Assembly: GCA_947074275.1 (NCBI GenBank)
Contig: CAMTPA010000001.1
Location: forward strand, 19,265-83,264
Source: an uncultured Bacteroides sp.
GTDB taxonomy: Bacteria; Bacteroidota; Bacteroidia; Bacteroidales; Bacteroidaceae
Reading direction: 5' to 3'
DNA length: 64,000 nt
The notes under the pieces are model-generated. The model searched no databases, had not been told where the DNA came from, and saw only the letters and a list, made by a program, of their open reading frames with translations. This document shows, in pieces, positions 38,555 through 43,862 of this stretch. Each line of letters starts with the position of its first letter. Position 1 is the stretch's first letter. The translations under genes were made by a program, and so were the position numbers.

Positions 38555-38666
38555 ACGATAGCTATGCACATCTATCGCCTCAACTATGCACACTCCATTT
38601 GCTGGGTAGCTATATCTAACGCGGTAGGCATAGCTACCCAGCACGGTAGATAGGCCTTGCTACCAA
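38555..38666. repeat. Array of about five 22-bp quasi-palindromic units (dispersed repeat family, copy 2)
   Basis: Centres TGCA 38565, TGCA 38587, GCTA 38609, TAGC 38631 and GGCC 38653 are 22 bp apart. GATAGGCCTTGCTACCAA (38649-38666) is the exact reverse complement of 23703-23720. Perfect 13-bp inverted repeat at 38601-38613/38630-38642. Confidence 0.75.
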
Positions 38667-38778
38667 TCAGGGTGTAGGAATAGCACCATTTCCGAATGAG
38701 TTCAACGAATGAACAGATATATTGTTTCAAAAAAAAATGTATCTTTGCTACACCAAAAATTTAAAATACAACCTCTAT

Positions 38779-40512
38779 ATGCCAAGCAAAATAACGGAAT
38801 CCATCACGGCATCTAAAATGCGGTTTACGCTGTTTGTATTTTTATTTATTCAAACAATCACCTTGTTTGCGCAGTCGTCTGCTGTCTTCGACTCGCTCAC
38901 TACCCTCATCAATCAGAGCAAAGGAGAAGAGAAGCTAAATATCTGTTATCAGGAGTGCAGCCGAGCGGCGGCACACACCACGGTGGACAACGAACTGGCA
39001 TTGCTTCACATCTACCAAGCAGAGGCCGAAAATCAGAACAATGCCAAACACGAGATGATGGTGCGCACACTGCGACTCTACACCTTCTACAACAGCAATA
39101 TGCACGATAGCATCTTCGTCTATATCAACAATGATTTGGAGGTGTTTCAAAAACACGAGCAATGGGACTTTTACTATTCGTGTCGCAGCCTGACGGTGGA
39201 GAGTTACCGCTATGCCAACCGTTTGCAGAGTGCTCTGAGAGAGGCGCAGGCTATGTACGACTTTGCTGTGAGCCACCACAGCAACTATGGAAAAGGGGTG
39301 GCCGCCTACCTCATTGCATCGTGTCACCAAAGTATGAATCGCAGCGCACAAGCGGTGGAGTTTTTCGAGACGGCAGAAGAGTGTATGCTGACAGAGGGCA
39401 ACGTGGGGCAACTGCACAATATGTATGGCATCGCATGGGAGTCGTTTCTGGCTGCAGGCGAAAACGAGAAACTGCAAAAGATGCTGGACAGGTGGGACGA
39501 TATGTGGAAGGAGTATTGTAAGAAAAACGAGATGCAGCTCACCGATGTGGCTATCTACTACTTGGTGTGTGTATCGGCAAGGGCACACTTGTATACCGAT
39601 AACAAAGATTTTGAAGCGGCCAGACGTGAGTTAGATGAAGCTGCCCGCTTAGCCGAAAATCAGAAAGAAATTTCCAAAGCTTTGTGGTTGAAAGAAGAGG
39701 CACGATATGCCGAAGCGATGGGTGGCTTGGACACAGCACTACACTATTTGGACGAATGCCACAAGGTGCAAACAAACCACAACAACCAGATTGCCGCTGT
39801 GGCTACACAAGAGATGCGAGCCAACTTGCTTATGAAACTTGGACGAATGGACGAAGCCGCACAAATCTACCGCAAGCTACTCCCTCAAAAAGATGCTATG
39901 ATGCAATTGGATATGGCTGCACAGCTCGACGACTTTAGTTCTATCTACAAGGTAGACACACTGCGTGAAGAGAAGATTCTGCTTAGATTGTGGCTGACGG
40001 TTGCTTTAATTGGTTTTGGAGCGATGGCGCTACTTACCACAGGATATTTTTACTATCAAAAGAAGCTGCAAGCCAAAAACAGGACTATTGTCTTGCAATA
40101 CCAAAAACAAAAAAATACCGAAAAGACACTCGAACAGATATTGGACAGCGAATCTTCCACCACATCGTCGGACAAAGATATGGAGATGTTTATGGAAATC
40201 AAGAAGTTTTTGAATAACAAAGAGGTACTCTCAAATCCTTCATTAGATCGCAACCTGCTTGCTGCCGAATTTGGCACCAACTACACCTATATCTCAAGAG
40301 CCATACAAGTTGGTGCGGGGGTAAATGTTAGTGCTTATATCAACCAAGTGCGAATAGACTATGCTTGCGAACTGCTGAAACAAGATAGCGAAAATAGCAT
40401 TGCCGAAGTGTTAGAGAAGTGTGGTTTTCAGTCGCGTTCCTACTTCTACCGCATCTTCAAAAGTCAAATGAATATGTCGCCCACCGAGTTCCAAAAAGAG
40501 TTGAAAGAGTAG
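38779..40512 (+). CDS. Membrane-spanning one-component regulator: signal/TM, periplasmic TPR-like helical domain, TM, cytoplasmic AraC HTH
   Basis: Hydrophobic 'MRFTLFVFLFIQTITLFAQ'; TPR-like helices ('AYLIASCHQSMNRSAQAVEFFETA', 'ANLLMKLGRMDEAAQIYRK'); TM 'LWLTVALIGFGAMALLTTGYFYY'; AraC 'LAAEFGTNYTYISRAI...YINQVRIDYACELL...CGFQSRSYFYRIFK..MNMSPTEF'. The -7 element TATCTTTG at 38740-38747 argues for a start at 38779 or 38818, not 38722. Confidence 0.88.
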   Translation: MPSKITESITASKMRFTLFVFLFIQTITLFAQSSAVFDSLTTLINQSKGEEKLNICYQECSRAAAHTTVDNELALLHIYQAEAENQNNAKHEMMVRTLRLYTFYNSNMHDSIFVYINNDLEVFQKHEQWDFYYSCRSLTVESYRYANRLQSALREAQAMYDFAVSHHSNYGKGVAAYLIASCHQSMNRSAQAVEFFETAEECMLTEGNVGQLHNMYGIAWESFLAAGENEKLQKMLDRWDDMWKEYCKKNEMQLTDVAIYYLVCVSARAHLYTDNKDFEAARRELDEAARLAENQKEISKALWLKEEARYAEAMGGLDTALHYLDECHKVQTNHNNQIAAVATQEMRANLLMKLGRMDEAAQIYRKLLPQKDAMMQLDMAAQLDDFSSIYKVDTLREEKILLRLWLTVALIGFGAMALLTTGYFYYQKKLQAKNRTIVLQYQKQKNTEKTLEQILDSESSTTSSDKDMEMFMEIKKFLNNKEVLSNPSLDRNLLAAEFGTNYTYISRAIQVGAGVNVSAYINQVRIDYACELLKQDSENSIAEVLEKCGFQSRSYFYRIFKSQMNMSPTEFQKELKE

Positions 40513-40634
40513 CCCCTTCACCCTACAAGAACCGTGTTTCTATTTTTCAAAATGAGCGTTATCATTTGGAAAATGAATGTATTTCGCACCTGAGAGCAAA
40601 AACAAAAGCCCCACAACTACTTATTTATCAACTC

Positions 40635-40700
40635 ATTGCATATAGTAGACAATTAATTGCGCATAGTAGACACATCTAAAAAGTATTCTCATTAATTTAG
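40635..40700 (+). promoter_or_regulatory. 17-bp direct repeat with 21-bp period upstream of the pilin gene (candidate AraC operator) and a degenerate -7 element
   Basis: ATTGCATATAGTAGACA (40635-40651) and ATTGCGCATAGTAGACA (40656-40672); TAATTTAG at 40693-40700 has one mismatch to TAnnTTTG. Confidence 0.5.
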
Positions 40701-40780
40701 CTGTCGAAACGATTGTAGCATCATAGCTGATATCTAAATGCACAACTACAACTTGAAAAATACAACACTAAAAAAAGGAT

Positions 40781-43630
40781 ATGAAGAGAAGTATTCTATT
40801 ACACGCAGCCACCGCGCTGCTGTTGCTTGGCACTGCTACGGGCTGCCAGCAAGAAATTGTTGAGGACAACGCACCCTCACAAGGGGCAATGAGAGAAATC
40901 ATCATCCAAGCCTCGATGGGCGAACCGGGCGTAAACACAAGGGCTTCGATGACACCCAGTGGAGATGACTTTATGAACACTACGTGGGTATCTCAATGGC
41001 AATCGCACGACCAATTGGGAGCTTGGAGCACGGGGGTCTCCCAACTTTCGGATTTCAATATCAATGCCGGATACGACAACGAGACGAAGAGTGCCTCGTT
41101 TACAGGACAAATACCACAAGATGCAACCCAAGTACGCTTTATATACCCCTACGATGCTGCCGCAACAATCACAAGCAACACATACACCGTAGACATCAGC
41201 ACCCAAGTGTGCGACGGTGGAGCGGTGTTTCACCACTATGCCAAAAACAAACCAATGGTGAGTGAGTTGATGGATGTGTCTGACGGAAATATCGCTGATG
41301 TAACACTACATAACCTCTGCGCAGGAATGGAGTATCGCATCAAGTTAGACCCTGCCATTACACAAACCGATGTACGGCTGCTGCGTGTGGAGCTGACAGG
41401 TGCGAATATAAAGAGCACCGCCACCCTTGCGCTCACCGACGGAGAGCTGACATATTCGGACGCAGCCAACCAAACTATTGCGATGAATATAGAGAACTCA
41501 CCACAGCTGGATGACTACAAGGGCGAAAAATACTTCTCGGTAGTTGGATCGGTGTTTCCGTTTGAAATGGATGTGGACGATGAAATCACCCTCACGGCAT
41601 ATACCAACTATGGTTTATACACGCGAACATTCAAAGCCACCGAAACAATGAACTTCGGATTGGGCAAGCACCACTACCTTAGCGTGACGATAAATGCTTT
41701 CACAGTTTCAAACACTTGGCTGGGAAAAGGAACAGCAGCCGACCCTTACTTAATAAGGAATCATACCGATATGAAATATATCGCTAATTGCGTTAAATAT
41801 GGGTCGAATGATGATCAAGGTGGGTATATAGAATTTACCTCAGAGGGAGTACATTTCAAACTAATGAATGATATAGACCTCGAATGTAATGAGCAAGAAC
41901 AATGGTTGCCAATAGGAGTGTGCGAGATTGGTCTCAGTATTCCTTTTGCAGGCACATTCGACGGGAATGGCAAAAGAGTAACGGGGCTTTATATTAATAC
42001 AAATTCTCAATGGGATAATATGGCTTTGTTTGGCAACATAGAGGGTGCAACCATTAAAAACCTCATTGTAGAAGGCAATGTGACAGGAGGTGGTAACAAT
42101 GCGGGCATTGTAGCGAATGCACTCAACAGCACCATCATCAACTGCTGCAACGCAGTGGTGGTGACAGGGGGAGTATATGCTTCTGGCGGTATAGCTGGAA
42201 TTATTTCCAACACTTCGATAATGAATTGCTACAACACGGCAGCAATTAACGCAAGCAGAACGGCGAATTATTTCGGCTCCATAGCTGGCTATGCTGATAA
42301 TCAATCCAAGCTAAAGAATTGCTATACCTTAAAGGACTGCGCTGAAACGGGATATTTCGTAGATGGACAAATCATTAACGAAGGAGTCCAGATAGAACAA
42401 TGTTATGACGAGGCATCAACAGATATTTCCCTCACTACGCTCAACACCAACGCAGCTTCCATTCCGGGAGCTTGTGCTTGGATGGAAGGTGCTGACGGCT
42501 ACCCCACCTTTGCGTTTGAGGAATTGCCTGTGGCAAGTGGCGAAATCACCGATAACTGGATAGACTTTGTAGCCCCCAACTTTGGTGGCGGACAAGGCAC
42601 ACAGAAGAATCCCTACATCATCAGCACCCCACAAGAGCTTGCCAAATTGGCGGCGGATGTGAATGGAGATAACACCTACTCAGGTAAATACTTCGCCTTG
42701 GCTTGCGACATCGACCTCAGCGGCAAGCAATGGACGGCGATAGGAGTGTATAAAAACATGTATGGTGTTGTAATTGAAAAGCCCTTCGACGGTACATTCG
42801 ATGGAAACAACAAAAAGATTACGGGGCTGTATATCAACAACAGCAACACAAGAACCGATGTTCAGGGGTTGTTTGGATATTTAGGCAATAGCGGCACTGT
42901 TCAAAACCTGCGCATGTCGGGTTCAATCACCGTTCAAGCCCATAATGTGGGCGGCGTGATAGCATACAACACAGGTATCGTCAAGGGTTGTAGCTTCAGC
43001 GGCACCGTGTCGGCTACGGTTTGGGATACTGCTGGTGGCAATAGCAGTTGCACCGTTGGTGGCATTGTAGGTTGTTCTAAAGGAACAATCATCTCTTGCC
43101 ACAACACAGGGATGGTGACGGCAACAAGTCAATCAACTTCCGCATCTCCTTATATTGGTGGCGTTGTTGGTAATACTTATACCTCTATTACTTCCTGCTA
43201 TAACATTGGTACGGTATCGGTTATGGGTGATAGCAATAGTTATGTTGGTGGCATAGCTGGGGTTGTAGAAATTATTTCTTCTTGCTACAACAATGGCGCT
43301 GTGTCGACTTCGGGAGGTTATACTGGCGGCATCGCAGGTTCTTCTATTTCCATCACCTCCTGTTACAACACAGGTGCGGTGACGGGAGAAAATAGCAATA
43401 TCGGTGGCATTGCTGGAAATACTTATAGCAGGGTAGAATATAGTTATTGTCTGAATGCAACTGACGGTGGCACAGATACAACAATAGGAAGTGGCAATGC
43501 TACCCTTAACAATGTAGCTGCACTATCAAAAGCCGAAATGACCAATGGCACAATGTATAGCAACTTAATACTGGGCGATAGCAATTATTGGAAAAATCGC
43601 ACAGGCGATTATCCTTGGTTGGGCTTTTAA
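40781..43630 (+). CDS. Fimbrillin (Mfa-like, type V pilin) lipoprotein with C-terminal GLUG-repeat adhesin-like domains
   Basis: Lipobox TATGC; pilin-type propeptide ending 'NTR|AS'; 'W...D.LG.W', 'IYPY', 'LHNLCA' N-terminal pilin motifs; two 'G.GT..DPY.I' modules with 'F.GTFDGN.K.ITGLYIN...LFG...GA..KNL...G' and many 'GGIAG..I..CYN.G.V' GLUG repeats. Confidence 0.8.
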   Translation: MKRSILLHAATALLLLGTATGCQQEIVEDNAPSQGAMREIIIQASMGEPGVNTRASMTPSGDDFMNTTWVSQWQSHDQLGAWSTGVSQLSDFNINAGYDNETKSASFTGQIPQDATQVRFIYPYDAAATITSNTYTVDISTQVCDGGAVFHHYAKNKPMVSELMDVSDGNIADVTLHNLCAGMEYRIKLDPAITQTDVRLLRVELTGANIKSTATLALTDGELTYSDAANQTIAMNIENSPQLDDYKGEKYFSVVGSVFPFEMDVDDEITLTAYTNYGLYTRTFKATETMNFGLGKHHYLSVTINAFTVSNTWLGKGTAADPYLIRNHTDMKYIANCVKYGSNDDQGGYIEFTSEGVHFKLMNDIDLECNEQEQWLPIGVCEIGLSIPFAGTFDGNGKRVTGLYINTNSQWDNMALFGNIEGATIKNLIVEGNVTGGGNNAGIVANALNSTIINCCNAVVVTGGVYASGGIAGIISNTSIMNCYNTAAINASRTANYFGSIAGYADNQSKLKNCYTLKDCAETGYFVDGQIINEGVQIEQCYDEASTDISLTTLNTNAASIPGACAWMEGADGYPTFAFEELPVASGEITDNWIDFVAPNFGGGQGTQKNPYIISTPQELAKLAADVNGDNTYSGKYFALACDIDLSGKQWTAIGVYKNMYGVVIEKPFDGTFDGNNKKITGLYINNSNTRTDVQGLFGYLGNSGTVQNLRMSGSITVQAHNVGGVIAYNTGIVKGCSFSGTVSATVWDTAGGNSSCTVGGIVGCSKGTIISCHNTGMVTATSQSTSASPYIGGVVGNTYTSITSCYNIGTVSVMGDSNSYVGGIAGVVEIISSCYNNGAVSTSGGYTGGIAGSSISITSCYNTGAVTGENSNIGGIAGNTYSRVEYSYCLNATDGGTDTTIGSGNATLNNVAALSKAEMTNGTMYSNLILGDSNYWKNRTGDYPWLGF

Positions 43631-43667
43631 GCAAAAAGAGTAATAGCAATAAAAAACAACAGATAGA

Positions 43668-43778
43668 ATGAAAACAAAAATTAGATACGTGAAACCCACC
43701 ATTGAGGTGATAACCATAGAGCTGGAAGCATCCGTGCTATCGGGCAGCAACCAGAGTTCGGGAACAGGATGGGGATAA
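43668..43778 (+). CDS. Unannotated 36-aa peptide MKTKIRYVKPTIEVITIELEASVLSGSNQSSGTGWG
   Basis: Below the track cutoff. ATG 37 nt after the pilin stop, A-rich leader with A at -3, closed by TAATAG, and inside the same transcription unit before the 43801 terminator. Confidence 0.7.
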   Translation: MKTKIRYVKPTIEVITIELEASVLSGSNQSSGTGWG

Positions 43779-43800
43779 TAGCTTGCTGAGCTACTTCCAC

Positions 43801-43862
43801 AAAAAAAGAACGCTGTAAAAAAGATAACAAAATGTTTTTCTTTTTGGCAGCGTTCTTTTTTT
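43801..43862 (+). terminator. Strong hairpin terminator closing the pilin-peptide unit
   Basis: AAAAAAAGAACGCTG...CAGCGTTCTTTTTTT 15-bp perfect arms extended by an imperfect inner stem; the -7 element TATCTTTG of the next gene begins at 43862. Confidence 0.8.

What the first reader, a model, noticed from the sequence alone, without database searches (positions are those of the whole stretch)
38779..43862. Candidate undescribed three-part system: transmembrane TPR-AraC sensor, orphan type V pilin and small peptide
Seen: (1) a one-component regulator with a periplasmic TPR-like domain, one TM helix and a cytoplasmic AraC HTH; (2) a 21-bp-period direct repeat before the next gene; (3) a pilin-type lipoprotein with an Arg processing site and GLUG repeats; (4) a 36-aa ORF in the same transcript; (5) a strong terminator. 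The block sits among core genes with no integrase. Known: TPR domains of RRNPP regulators bind signalling peptides in Gram-positive bacteria, and type V pilins assemble by protease-triggered beta-strand exchange. Inference: a self-contained circuit in which the regulator switches on an adhesin plus a peptide that either feeds back on the TPR sensor (quorum- or assembly-sensing) or acts as a strand-complementing chaperone for the pilin. I know of no characterised system with this composition. This is the best candidate in the window.
Basis: partly seen in the sequence, partly recalled or inferred. Interest (0 to 1): 0.75.

Follow-up and report, generated by a model that had tools for sequence, protein, structure and literature searches.

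The report
Regulated pilin-fold adhesin with partner micro-peptide
A fish-gut Bacteroides carries a small operon in which a membrane-spanning sensor-regulator most likely switches on a surface adhesin built on a pilus-subunit fold, together with a conserved, unannotated 36-residue peptide that recurs beside adhesins of this type in other bacteria and whose role is still unknown.

Summary

- **Regulator:** signal peptide, periplasmic TPR domain, one membrane helix, cytoplasmic AraC HTH.
- **Operator:** two half-sites 21 bp apart. A matching tandem site follows four orthologous regulator genes in three further locus types and occurs nowhere else in 341 kb, so it is very probably the operator.
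- **Adhesin:** the 949-aa lipoprotein has a type V pilin fold (AF2 plus Foldseek), a conserved Arg after the first strand, and two GLUG beta-helix modules resembling the N-domain of IgA1 proteases.
- **Peptide:** the 36-aa ORF is a real gene (pN/pS 0.24-0.44). It belongs to an unannotated family found beside GLUG surface proteins at seven of the nine locus types examined.
- **Terminator:** a strong hairpin closes the unit.

The proposed mechanisms fare less well. Orthologous regulators with equally conserved TPR domains drive pilin or polysaccharide operons that lack the peptide. The peptide also occurs without the regulator. It has no export signal. In two loci it sits with an HprK/ScmC-like kinase and an S24-like peptidase, and in one of those also with PqqD, a nucleotidyltransferase and an ABC exporter.

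Best reading: two linked modules, regulator-operator and adhesin-peptide, with the peptide probably a leader-plus-core precursor. Moderately novel; the peptide's function is open.

The parts
38779..40512 (+). One-component transmembrane regulator, 577 aa. Signal-like segment res 14-32; periplasmic TPR domain about res 35-395 (nt 38881-39963); membrane helix res 400-423 (nt 39976-40047); AraC-type HTH res 494-573 (nt 40258-40497).
   Evidence: Pfam HTH_18 E 8e-18, HTH_AraC, weak TPR families. Hydropathy and positive-inside rule. 26 full-length relatives at 38-72% identity.
40629..40673 (+). Probable operator: two 17-bp half-sites (40636-40652 and 40657-40673) spaced 21 bp. The 21-nt repeat units found by the repeat tool are 40629-40649 and 40650-40670.
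   Evidence: A homologous tandem site follows the orthologous regulator genes in L007, L008, L010 and L017. These five are the only such sites in 341 kb.
40693..40700 (+). Bacteroides-type -7-like box TAATTTAG (consensus TAnnTTTG, one mismatch), starting 16 nt after the proximal 21-nt unit.
   Evidence: Read. The same spacing to TATATTTG (L007), TACATTTG (L008/L017) and TAGATTCG (L010). The consensus comes from established knowledge of Bacteroides promoters.
40781..43630 (+). Surface lipoprotein adhesin, 949 aa. Lipobox Cys22 (nt 40844-40846); Arg54 candidate cleavage site (nt 40940-40942); type V pilin fold res 37-305 (nt 40889-41695); GLUG module 1 res about 311-590 (nt 41711-42550); GLUG module 2 res 591-949 (nt 42551-43627).
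   Evidence: Pfam Glug. AF2 models with pLDDT 67.6 and 78.9. Foldseek top hits are type V pilin-superfamily structures, and IgA1 protease for the GLUG part. The two modules are 30% identical. The xTR motif is conserved.
43668..43778 (+). 36-aa peptide MKTKIRYVKPTIEVITIELEASVLSGSNQSSGTGWG. The first 27 residues are conserved and leader-like; the tail is short, Gly/Ser-rich and ends in GWG.
   Evidence: Homologues at 50-69% identity. pN/pS 0.24-0.44 with pS 0.23-0.83. No Pfam or NCBIfam family. No source gives it a name.
43801..43862 (+). Long hairpin with a flanking A-run and U-run: an intrinsic, probably bidirectional, terminator closing the unit.
   Evidence: dG -32.7 kcal/mol, z -5.98, 0 of 200 shuffles as stable.

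Best explanation
The block is a regulated surface-adhesin operon made of two linked modules.

Module 1 is a membrane-spanning one-component regulator. Its periplasmic TPR domain receives an envelope or environmental cue. Its cytoplasmic AraC-type domain binds two direct half-sites 21 bp apart that abut the -33 region of a Bacteroides-type promoter, and activates transcription. Binding and activation are inferred.

Module 2 is the transcript. It encodes a lipoprotein whose N-terminal part has the type V pilin fold, with the usual Arg site after the first strand, and whose C-terminal part is two GLUG beta-helix modules. This is a tip-adhesin-like or cell-anchored adhesin with no stalk or anchor pilin found in the window by BLAST. 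The transcript also encodes a 36-aa peptide and ends at a strong hairpin.

The peptide belongs to a new family whose constant partner is a large surface protein, usually a GLUG protein, and not the regulator. Its architecture is a conserved N-terminal 27 residues followed by a variable Gly/Ser-rich tail with a terminal aromatic. In two other loci it is encoded with an HprK/ScmC-like kinase and an S24/S26-like peptidase; one of those also has a PqqD recognition protein, a nucleotidyltransferase and an ABC exporter.

From this I infer that it is a leader-plus-core precursor. It would be processed, and perhaps modified and exported, by functions encoded elsewhere in this genome, and would act together with the adhesin. 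It is probably not the ligand of the TPR sensor.
For: - Domain architecture and topology of the regulator.
- The operator is conserved and unique to regulator-downstream positions, at a fixed distance from a -7-like box.
- The cargo of orthologous regulators is always a cell-surface function: pilins in L010 and L019, GLUG/Mfa-LRR in L018, polysaccharide genes in L007/L008/L017.
- Pilin fold and GLUG/IgA1-protease-like beta-helix. The N-terminal domain is homologous (BLAST 1e-30) to that of P0007, which carries PF13149 Mfa_like_1.
- The peptide is coding and conserved.
- The peptide is adjacent to GLUG proteins in the window, L009, L011, L012, L013, L018 and L020. A motif regex hit only these peptide ORFs in all loci.
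- The contig of P0002 probably carries a further pair; both P0002 and peptide P0150 are on record with a longest contig of 75,138 bases.
- Maturation-type neighbours: the L018 kinase and peptidase are homologous to those of L015 (29% and 28% identity). PqqD E 2e-15 and NTP_transf_5 E 4e-42. ScmC/HprK_rel_A weak hits, and PF27840 ScmC in the precomputed table.
Against: - There are no expression data, so co-transcription and regulator control are inferences.
- No kinase, S24-like peptidase or NTP_transf_5 homologue is found in the 64-kb window (tblastn); PqqD and ABC exporter were not searched for. Five of the seven GLUG-linked loci also lack visible maturation genes. The peptide may therefore act unprocessed.
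- The peptide has no recognisable export signal.
- A profile of rumen lasso leaders scores the window peptide at chance level (E 9 among 1746 small ORFs).
- The nearest full-length adhesin relative outside the group (P0007, three contigs) has neither peptide nor regulator.
- The L018 tandem site has 20-bp, not 21-bp, spacing and was found by eye only.
Confidence: 0.5

Rival explanations
1. Autoinduction circuit. The peptide is exported and binds the periplasmic TPR domain of the regulator, giving positive feedback or quorum or assembly sensing on the adhesin operon.
For: A regulator, peptide and GLUG adhesin occur together in four independent loci. These include two TPR-TM-AraC proteins only 23.5% identical to each other. 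TPR domains are classic peptide binders (established knowledge). In L018 the peptide and its putative maturation genes lie inside the operon downstream of the regulator.
Against: Orthologous regulators at 45-59% identity have no peptide nearby: L005, L007, L008/L017, L010 and L019. In the 52-59% group the TPR domains are as conserved as the HTH. The closest orthologue examined in context (L010, 59%) lacks the peptide, while the more distant L018 has it. The peptide occurs without an adjacent regulator in L012, L014/15 and L016. It has no signal peptide, and no exporter was noted among the genes examined beside the block (window-wide tblastn covered only kinase, peptidase and nucleotidyltransferase).
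Confidence: 0.12
2. Strand-complementing partner. The amphipathic beta-strand of the peptide (PTIEVITIELEASVL) fills the groove of the pilin-fold domain, or caps an edge of the GLUG beta-helix, stabilising an adhesin that has no partner pilin subunits.
For: The peptide's constant neighbour is the adhesin, with tight spacing: a 37-nt gap here and an overlapping stop/start in L013. The conserved part is strand-like and loosely resembles the adhesin's own first strand (EIIIQASMG against ELEASVLSG, read). No stalk or anchor pilin is detected in the window by tblastn.
Against: The peptide has no signal sequence, whereas the adhesin is a Sec-exported lipoprotein. The same family sits next to a Flg_new surface protein on a low-GC, Firmicutes-like contig (L015) and next to dockerin/DUF7619 proteins (L016), where no pilin fold was detected. 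In L015 and L018 it is accompanied by kinase and peptidase genes, which a simple structural partner would not need.
Confidence: 0.12
3. The peptide is a stand-alone secreted product, either a bacteriocin-like or signalling RiPP. It merely shares a promoter with adhesin genes and has no functional tie to them.
For: Leader-plus-variable-core architecture. The PqqD/kinase/peptidase/NTP-transferase/ABC cassette in L015. The leader resembles Firmicutes lasso leaders such as MKTWTKPELEVLAIEETAQ (PMC7533575).
Against: Adjacency to GLUG proteins in seven separate contexts, spanning uncultured Bacteroides MAGs and a Rikenellaceae MAG, is hard to explain without a functional link. The cores are very short (9-12 residues here) and, in the window peptide, lack the residues needed for known ring chemistries. 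Most loci have no maturase.
Confidence: 0.15
4. The 36-aa ORF is not a gene, and the conservation reflects the 3' UTR or terminator region.
For: It is very short, has no family annotation, and is rare in databases.
Against: Frame, length, start and stop are kept in four sequences with pS 0.23-0.83 but pN 0.10-0.26. The family extends to unrelated nucleotide backgrounds. A strict motif search gave no false hits in 341 kb.
Confidence: 0.03

Closest known systems
Type V pili of Bacteroidia (FimA/Mfa superfamily; tip pilins with extra C-terminal domains)
   Same: Lipoprotein signal with lipobox Cys. First beta-strand followed by a conserved Arg. Two-lobed beta-sandwich fold matching 4k4k, 3ufi, 3t2l, 3sy6, Mfa4 5dhm and FimA1 6jzk. 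An adhesive C-terminal extension, as in tip pilins. Relatives carry PF13149 Mfa_like_1.
   Different: No stalk, anchor or other pilin gene is detected in the operon or elsewhere in the 64-kb window by tblastn. The C-terminus is taken up by about 640 aa of GLUG modules, so the usual C-terminal donor strands are not free. Pfam's own model does not score the domain. Polymerisation is untested.
GLUG-motif beta-helix of M26 IgA1 proteases (Streptococcus pneumoniae, Gemella haemolysans)
   Same: PF07581 repeats. The model aligns to 7uvk, 6xjb and 6xja over about 320-370 columns at 18-20% identity, prob 1.00.
   Different: No M26 catalytic domain. Here the module is fused to a pilin fold in a Gram-negative lipoprotein.
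AraC/XylS activators binding tandem direct half-sites (AraC I1-I2, 21-bp register; class II activation overlapping -35)
   Same: C-terminal double HTH. Two about 17-bp direct half-sites 21 bp apart, adjacent to the promoter.
   Different: The regulator is membrane-anchored, with a signal peptide and a roughly 360-aa periplasmic TPR sensor instead of a cytoplasmic ligand or dimerisation domain. The promoter is Bacteroides-type. No member of this architecture was found characterised in the literature searched.
RRNPP peptide-sensing regulators of Firmicutes
   Same: A TPR domain combined with a DNA-binding domain, and a small peptide gene nearby.
   Different: Here the HTH is AraC-type and C-terminal. 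The TPR domain is predicted periplasmic rather than cytoplasmic. The peptide lacks a secretion signal, is linked to the adhesin rather than to the regulator, and is absent from most orthologous regulator loci.
Lasso-peptide precursors of Firmicutes and their accessory genes (PqqD/B1, HPr-kinase-like, nucleotidyltransferase, ABC exporter)
   Same: N-terminal aromatic-x-x-P-x-[IL]-E-V-[IL]-x-I motif. Compare MKTWTKPELEVLAIEETAQ in PMC7533575. The relative in L015 sits with PqqD, an HprK/ScmC-like kinase, NTP_transf_5 and an ABC transporter.
   Different: No lasso cyclase or B2 protease in the roughly 7 kb either side of the peptide in L014/L015 that was examined. No Thr at -2. The window core has no Asp or Glu for a macrolactam. 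An S24/S26-like peptidase takes the protease's place. A profile of lasso leaders does not score the window peptide above chance.

Membership tests
AraC/XylS transcription factor family | C-terminal double helix-turn-helix (HTH_18 / HTH_AraC) | tested here: met
   PF12833 E 7.9e-18 (65 bits, cut-off 33.6) and PF00165 E 3.5e-11.
Membrane-bound one-component sensor-regulator | Sensor and DNA-binding domains in one chain, separated by a single membrane helix | tested here: met
   Hydropathy peaks at res 14-32 and 400-423 only, with a positive cluster after the second. Topology is inferred, not measured.
RRNPP regulators | Cytoplasmic TPR domain C-terminal to an XRE-type HTH (or a phosphatase); cognate secreted and re-imported peptide | tested here: not met
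   The HTH is AraC-type and C-terminal. The TPR lies between a signal peptide and the membrane helix. The peptide has no signal sequence.
Type V pilin (FimA/Mfa superfamily) | Lipoprotein signal peptide with lipobox cysteine | tested here: met
   MKRSILLHAATALLLLGTATGC, Cys22.
Type V pilin (FimA/Mfa superfamily) | Two-domain beta-sandwich pilin fold | tested here: met
   AF2 core pLDDT 70-92. The top 24 Foldseek PDB hits are all Bacteroidales pilin-superfamily structures or pilin-domain fusions (E to 6e-10, TMt 0.5-0.58). Repeated with the full-length model, including FimA1 6jzk. Sequence link to the PF13149-bearing P0007.
Type V pilin (FimA/Mfa superfamily) | Arg/Lys cleavage site in the loop after the first strand | tested here: met
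   GVNTR54-A. xTR[AVLS] is conserved in P0002, P0003, P0009, P0011, L012, L013 and the L010 and L020 pilins; P0007 has Lys. Cleavage itself is untested.
Type V pilin (FimA/Mfa superfamily) | Operon with stalk and anchor subunits; polymerisation by strand exchange | tested here: not met
   No paralogue of the pilin domain in the 64-kb window (tblastn); remote paralogues could be missed. Polymerisation is not testable here.
GLUG motif proteins (PF07581) | Repeated GLUG motifs above the Pfam threshold | tested here: met
   50-57 bits against a cut-off of 20.5; 8 stretches.
Lasso peptide precursor | Leader YxxPxL...T(-2); core starting G/A/S/C with Asp/Glu at position 7-9; adjacent B and C enzymes | tested here: not met
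   Y7, P10 and I12 are present. There is no Thr at -2 and no acidic residue after residue 20. No maturase homologue in the window (only kinase, peptidase and nucleotidyltransferase queries were run, not lasso B or C). The lasso-leader profile gives E 9.
RRE (PqqD)-dependent RiPP precursor | Precursor encoded beside a PqqD-like recognition protein and modifying enzymes | tested here: inconclusive
   Met for the relative in L015 (PqqD E 2.4e-15). Partly met in L018 (kinase and peptidase, no PqqD). Not met next to the peptide in the window. The rest of the genome is unavailable.
Intrinsic terminator | Stable GC-containing hairpin followed by a U-run | tested here: met
   43801-43862, -32.7 kcal/mol, z -6, UUUUUUU tail.

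The most novel reading that the evidence does not exclude
The peptide is the processed, exported signal of a Gram-negative pheromone-adhesin circuit. A lasso-leader-like micro-peptide, matured by an HprK-like kinase and an S24-like peptidase, would be sensed outside the cell, by the periplasmic TPR domain of the AraC regulator or by the GLUG adhesin itself, and would couple cell density or contact to display of a type V pilin-fold adhesin. This would be a new RiPP-like class and the first peptide-sensing TPR regulator with this topology in Bacteroidota.
Probability: 0.12. Interest if true: 0.8.

Novelty: new variant of a known kind. Interest (0 to 1): 0.58.

Why it matters
[quoted passage not shown] This locus offers a compact, testable model: a membrane sensor with a conserved tandem operator that appears to drive different surface-structure operons (pilins, GLUG adhesins, polysaccharides) in related genomes. 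It also reveals an unannotated micro-peptide family. That family's repeated pairing with GLUG-type surface proteins, and occasional pairing with kinase, peptidase and RRE genes, has no described counterpart. It may represent a new kind of processed peptide working with adhesins.

Tried and rejected
- Pfam and NCBIfam do not recognise the N-terminal domain or the peptide.
- The exhaustive representative search with the peptide gave only 2 hits. DNA-level scans were needed.
- P0002's contig could not be retrieved.
- Literature searches for ScmC and for TPR-AraC regulators of pili found nothing relevant.
- No RNA runs cover the locus or the L016 relative.
- Logan contigs of three fish-gut runs show no inverted promoter form, but contigs cannot show rare variants.
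- Rfam and tRNA scans of the window found nothing.
- Lasso peptide rejected: no acidic core residue, no Thr at -2, and the lasso-leader profile is not significant.
- Mobile-element origin was considered. There is no integrase and the flanks are housekeeping genes. However, contig breaks and a depth drop at 38.57-38.67 kb hint that the block varies between strains.
- The L018 tandem site has 20-bp spacing and was not counted as an operator.
Full report
**What is in the window.** Three same-strand ORFs fill 38779-43778.

The first (38779-40512, 577 aa) carries HTH_18 (E 8e-18) and HTH_AraC at its C-terminus and several weak TPR families further upstream. Hydropathy shows only two hydrophobic segments. 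One is signal-peptide-like (res 14-32, ending LFAQS). The other is a membrane helix (res 400-423) followed by a cluster of positive charges. The roughly 360-aa TPR region should therefore lie in the periplasm and the HTH in the cytoplasm. This topology is inferred, not measured.

A 268-nt intergenic region holds two 21-nt direct repeat units (40629-40670, 81% identical).

The second ORF (40781-43630, 949 aa) begins with a lipoprotein signal and lipobox (Cys22). Pfam finds eight GLUG stretches in its C-terminal 620 residues but nothing in the first 330.

After a 37-nt A-rich gap comes a 36-codon ORF (43668-43778). It is followed by a long hairpin at 43801-43862 (-32.7 kcal/mol, z -6, none of 200 shuffles as stable), flanked by an A-run and a U-run.

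The flanking genes are ordinary. Upstream are an M16 peptidase, a LOG-like gene, a SIS-like gene, a sugar kinase-like gene and a CBM9-type lipoprotein. Downstream are a DUF4369-thioredoxin lipoprotein, RuvB, a flippase-like protein, DUF389 and an S46 peptidase. The only public runs holding the sequence are fish-gut metagenomes, DNA only. The nearest named relatives are uncultured Bacteroides MAGs.

**The adhesin.** The N-terminal domain is 45-50% identical to the same region of P0002 and P0003. It is 32% identical (BLAST 1e-30) to that of P0007, which carries PF13149 Mfa_like_1.
- An AF2 model of residues 1-340 (pLDDT 67.6, core 70-90) gave a Foldseek top-24 made up entirely of Bacteroidales type V pilin-superfamily structures or pilin-domain fusions. 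These include 4k4k, 3ufi, 3t2l, 4rdb, 3sy6 and Mfa4 5dhm, with E down to 6e-10.
- The full-length model (pLDDT 78.9) repeated these hits and added FimA1 prepilin 6jzk. Its GLUG part matched the beta-helical N-domain of IgA1 proteases 7uvk, 6xjb and 6xja.
- The first strand (res 37-46) is followed by GVNTR54-A. The xTR[AVLS] motif is conserved in relatives and in unrelated Mfa-like proteins of L010 and L020. This is the position of the protease site of type V pilins (established knowledge).
- There are two GLUG modules, 30% identical to each other. Close relatives have only one.
- No other pilin-domain gene was found in the window by tblastn.

The protein is thus a pilin-fold adhesin of tip-pilin style, or simply a lipid-anchored surface adhesin. 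Whether it polymerises cannot be tested here.

**The regulator and its operator.** The regulator has 26 full-length relatives at 38-72% identity. I looked at the context of eight of them.
- Directly downstream of those in L007, L008, L010 and L017 lies a tandem site with the same core as in the window, TTGC(G/A)nAt.t.G..A, in the same 21-bp register.
- In 341 kb of window plus loci, both strands, the only TTG[CG]-N17-TTG[CG] sites with at least 13/17 matching half-site positions are these five.
- In each, a TAnnTTTG-like -7 box starts 16 nt after the proximal unit (read). The site therefore abuts the -33 region, as for class II AraC-type activation.
- L018 has a similar pair with 20-bp spacing. 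I did not count it.

What follows the operator differs between loci:

| Locus | Cargo downstream of the regulator orthologue |
|---|---|
| window | adhesin plus peptide |
| L010 | five Mfa_like_1 genes |
| L018 | kinase, peptidase, peptide, GLUG lipoprotein, Mfa-LRR protein |
| L019 | pilin-like lipoproteins |
| L007, L008/L017 | flippase, polymerase-like and glycosyltransferase genes |
| L005/L006 | small unknown ORFs |

Sources. The regulator-operator pair is therefore a conserved module that drives variable cell-surface cargo. That the regulator controls the adhesin promoter is a strong comparative inference, not a demonstration.

**The peptide.** The exhaustive search of 1.84 billion representatives found only two relatives. 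DNA-level scans and context look-ups found more.
- *Directly after a pilin-GLUG gene:* four 35-36-aa versions sit 30-45 nt after a pilin-GLUG gene ending ..YPWLGF. These are the window, L009, L011 and L012. Frame, length and start are all kept.
- *Selection:* between these four, synonymous differences are frequent (pS 0.23-0.83) while non-synonymous ones are few (pN 0.10-0.26), giving ratios of 0.24-0.44. The ORF is a gene under purifying selection.
- *More distant members:* these keep the first ~27 residues, (M..)Y-x-[KR]-P-T-I-E-V-I-x-[IL]-E-x-E-...-[AS]-G-S, but have different tails of 9-43 residues, Gly/Ser-rich and usually with a late aromatic.

| Locus | Form and position of the distant member |
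|---|---|
| L013 | 70-aa ORF overlapping the start of a 684-aa pilin-like GLUG lipoprotein |
| L018 | 56-62-aa ORF just before an 887-aa GLUG lipoprotein |
| L020 (Rikenellaceae MAG) | uncalled 39-aa ORF just after a 1400-aa Mfa_like_1-GLUG protein |
| L016 | 58-aa ORF after three secreted proteins |
| L014/L015 (low-GC, Firmicutes-like contigs) | 40-aa ORF before a 953-aa Flg_new surface protein |

- *Specificity:* a strict motif regex hit only these ORFs in all sequence held.
- *Annotation:* none of the peptides carries a functional name in any source.

Seven of the nine distinct locus types have a GLUG protein as the immediate neighbour.

**Clues to what the peptide is.**
- In L018 the operon downstream of the regulator orthologue begins with a 310-aa P-loop protein and a 170-aa S24-like peptidase. 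The P-loop protein is PF27840 ScmC in the precomputed table and gives weak HprK_rel_A and ScmC hits.
- L015 has homologues of both (29% and 28% identity). It also has an 87-aa PqqD protein between them (E 2.4e-15), an NTP_transf_5 nucleotidyltransferase (E 4e-42) and a divergent ABC exporter.
- That gene set matches the accessory genes of Firmicutes lasso clusters, but no lasso cyclase or B2 protease lies in the region examined. The peptide's N-terminus also resembles Firmicutes lasso leaders such as MKTWTKPELEVLAIEETAQ (PMC7533575).
- The resemblance is only that. A profile of those leaders scores the window peptide at chance (E 9 among 1746 small ORFs). The window peptide has no Thr at -2 and no acidic core residue.
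- No kinase, peptidase or nucleotidyltransferase homologue is present in the 64-kb window.

I therefore read the peptide as a leader-plus-core precursor of a processed peptide. Any maturation functions would be encoded elsewhere in this genome or be dispensable. This step is inferred and carries modest confidence.

*Feedback on the TPR sensor.*
- Orthologous regulators in L005, L007, L008/L017, L010 and L019 have no peptide in up to 10 kb on either side.
- In the first four of those the TPR domains are as conserved relative to the window (53-61%) as the HTH domains (56-64%). L019 is lower in both (45% and 33%).
- The closest orthologue examined in context (L010) lacks the peptide.
- The peptide occurs without an adjacent regulator in L012, L014/15 and L016; in L020 no regulator lies in the 2.2 kb held upstream.

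A sensor tuned to a locus-specific peptide would not behave this way. Still, the triad does recur in L009, L013 and L018, with very divergent regulators. The simplest account is two pairwise links. TPR-TM-AraC regulators commonly control pilin-type operons, and GLUG adhesins commonly carry the peptide.

*Strand-complementing chaperone.*
- Tight coupling to the adhesin and the strand-like sequence speak for it.
- The missing export signal, the occurrence beside non-pilin surface proteins, and the kinase and peptidase neighbours speak against it.

Neither idea is excluded. I give each about 0.12.

**Comparison with known systems and novelty.**
- The parts are members of known families: the AraC/XylS HTH, the type V pilin fold and the GLUG motif.
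- The regulator's architecture (signal peptide, periplasmic TPR, membrane helix, AraC HTH) and its conserved operator were not found characterised in the literature searched.
- The system is not RRNPP-like in topology or domain order.
- The peptide family is unannotated. Its pairing with GLUG surface proteins, and occasional pairing with an HprK/ScmC-like kinase, an S24-like peptidase and PqqD, has no described counterpart that I could find.
- I rate the whole as a new variant of a known kind: a regulated adhesin operon with an unusual, conserved peptide partner.
- It is rare in the databases: a handful of MAGs, plus one relative found on 309 contigs.

**Limits.**
- There are no expression or protein data.
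- Context evidence rests on about twenty loci, several of them short metagenomic contigs.
- Remote pilin paralogues in the window could have been missed.
- The rest of this genome is unavailable.
- AF2 confidence for the N-terminal loop holding Arg54 is low.

Noticed in passing
window 38570-38683: A palindrome with 22-nt arms (38600-38643) lies just upstream of the regulator gene. Logan contigs from three fish-gut runs break or diverge at 38570-38666, and word depth falls from about 12 to about 7 there. The regulator-adhesin block may therefore vary between strains.
   Followed up: partly
window 40538-40550 and 40753-40765: A 13-nt inverted repeat (92% complementary) brackets the whole operator and promoter region, in the manner of an invertible promoter. 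No inverted form was seen, but only assembled contigs were available.
   Followed up: partly
L015 5480-12989 (also L014): On low-GC, Firmicutes-like contigs there is a RiPP-like cassette without a lasso cyclase. It comprises an ABC exporter, a ScmC/HprK-like protein, PqqD, an S24/S26-like peptidase, NTP_transf_5, a 40-aa peptide of the same family and a 953-aa Flg_new surface protein.
   Followed up: partly
L018 7001-15617: A regulator orthologue (48% identical) is followed by a ScmC-like kinase, an S24-like peptidase, the peptide, an 887-aa GLUG lipoprotein and an Mfa_like_1-LRR_5 protein. FimA-type pilin genes are divergently transcribed upstream.
   Followed up: partly
L013 9616-9972: A stand-alone 118-aa AraC HTH protein lies between the TPR-TM-AraC regulator and the peptide ORF. 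It is 57% identical to the C-terminus of that regulator.
   Followed up: no
L012 4039-4111: Three 22-bp direct repeats (..CATACTGCGAAAT..) lie after the peptide's terminator, near the end of a 4.5-kb contig. They may be another regulator's binding site.
   Followed up: no
window 41711-43627: The GLUG region is a tandem duplication of a roughly 280-360-aa module (30% identity). Relatives P0002 (579 aa), P0003 (744 aa) and L012 (740 aa) have a single module. Contig joints that skip 370 and 1748 nt inside the gene probably reflect these repeats or co-occurring shorter paralogues.
   Followed up: partly
L020 6675-6794: A 39-aa member of the peptide family in a Rikenellaceae MAG is not in the list of called genes for this contig. 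It lies between a 1400-aa Mfa_like_1-GLUG gene and an LRR_5 lipoprotein gene.
   Followed up: yes
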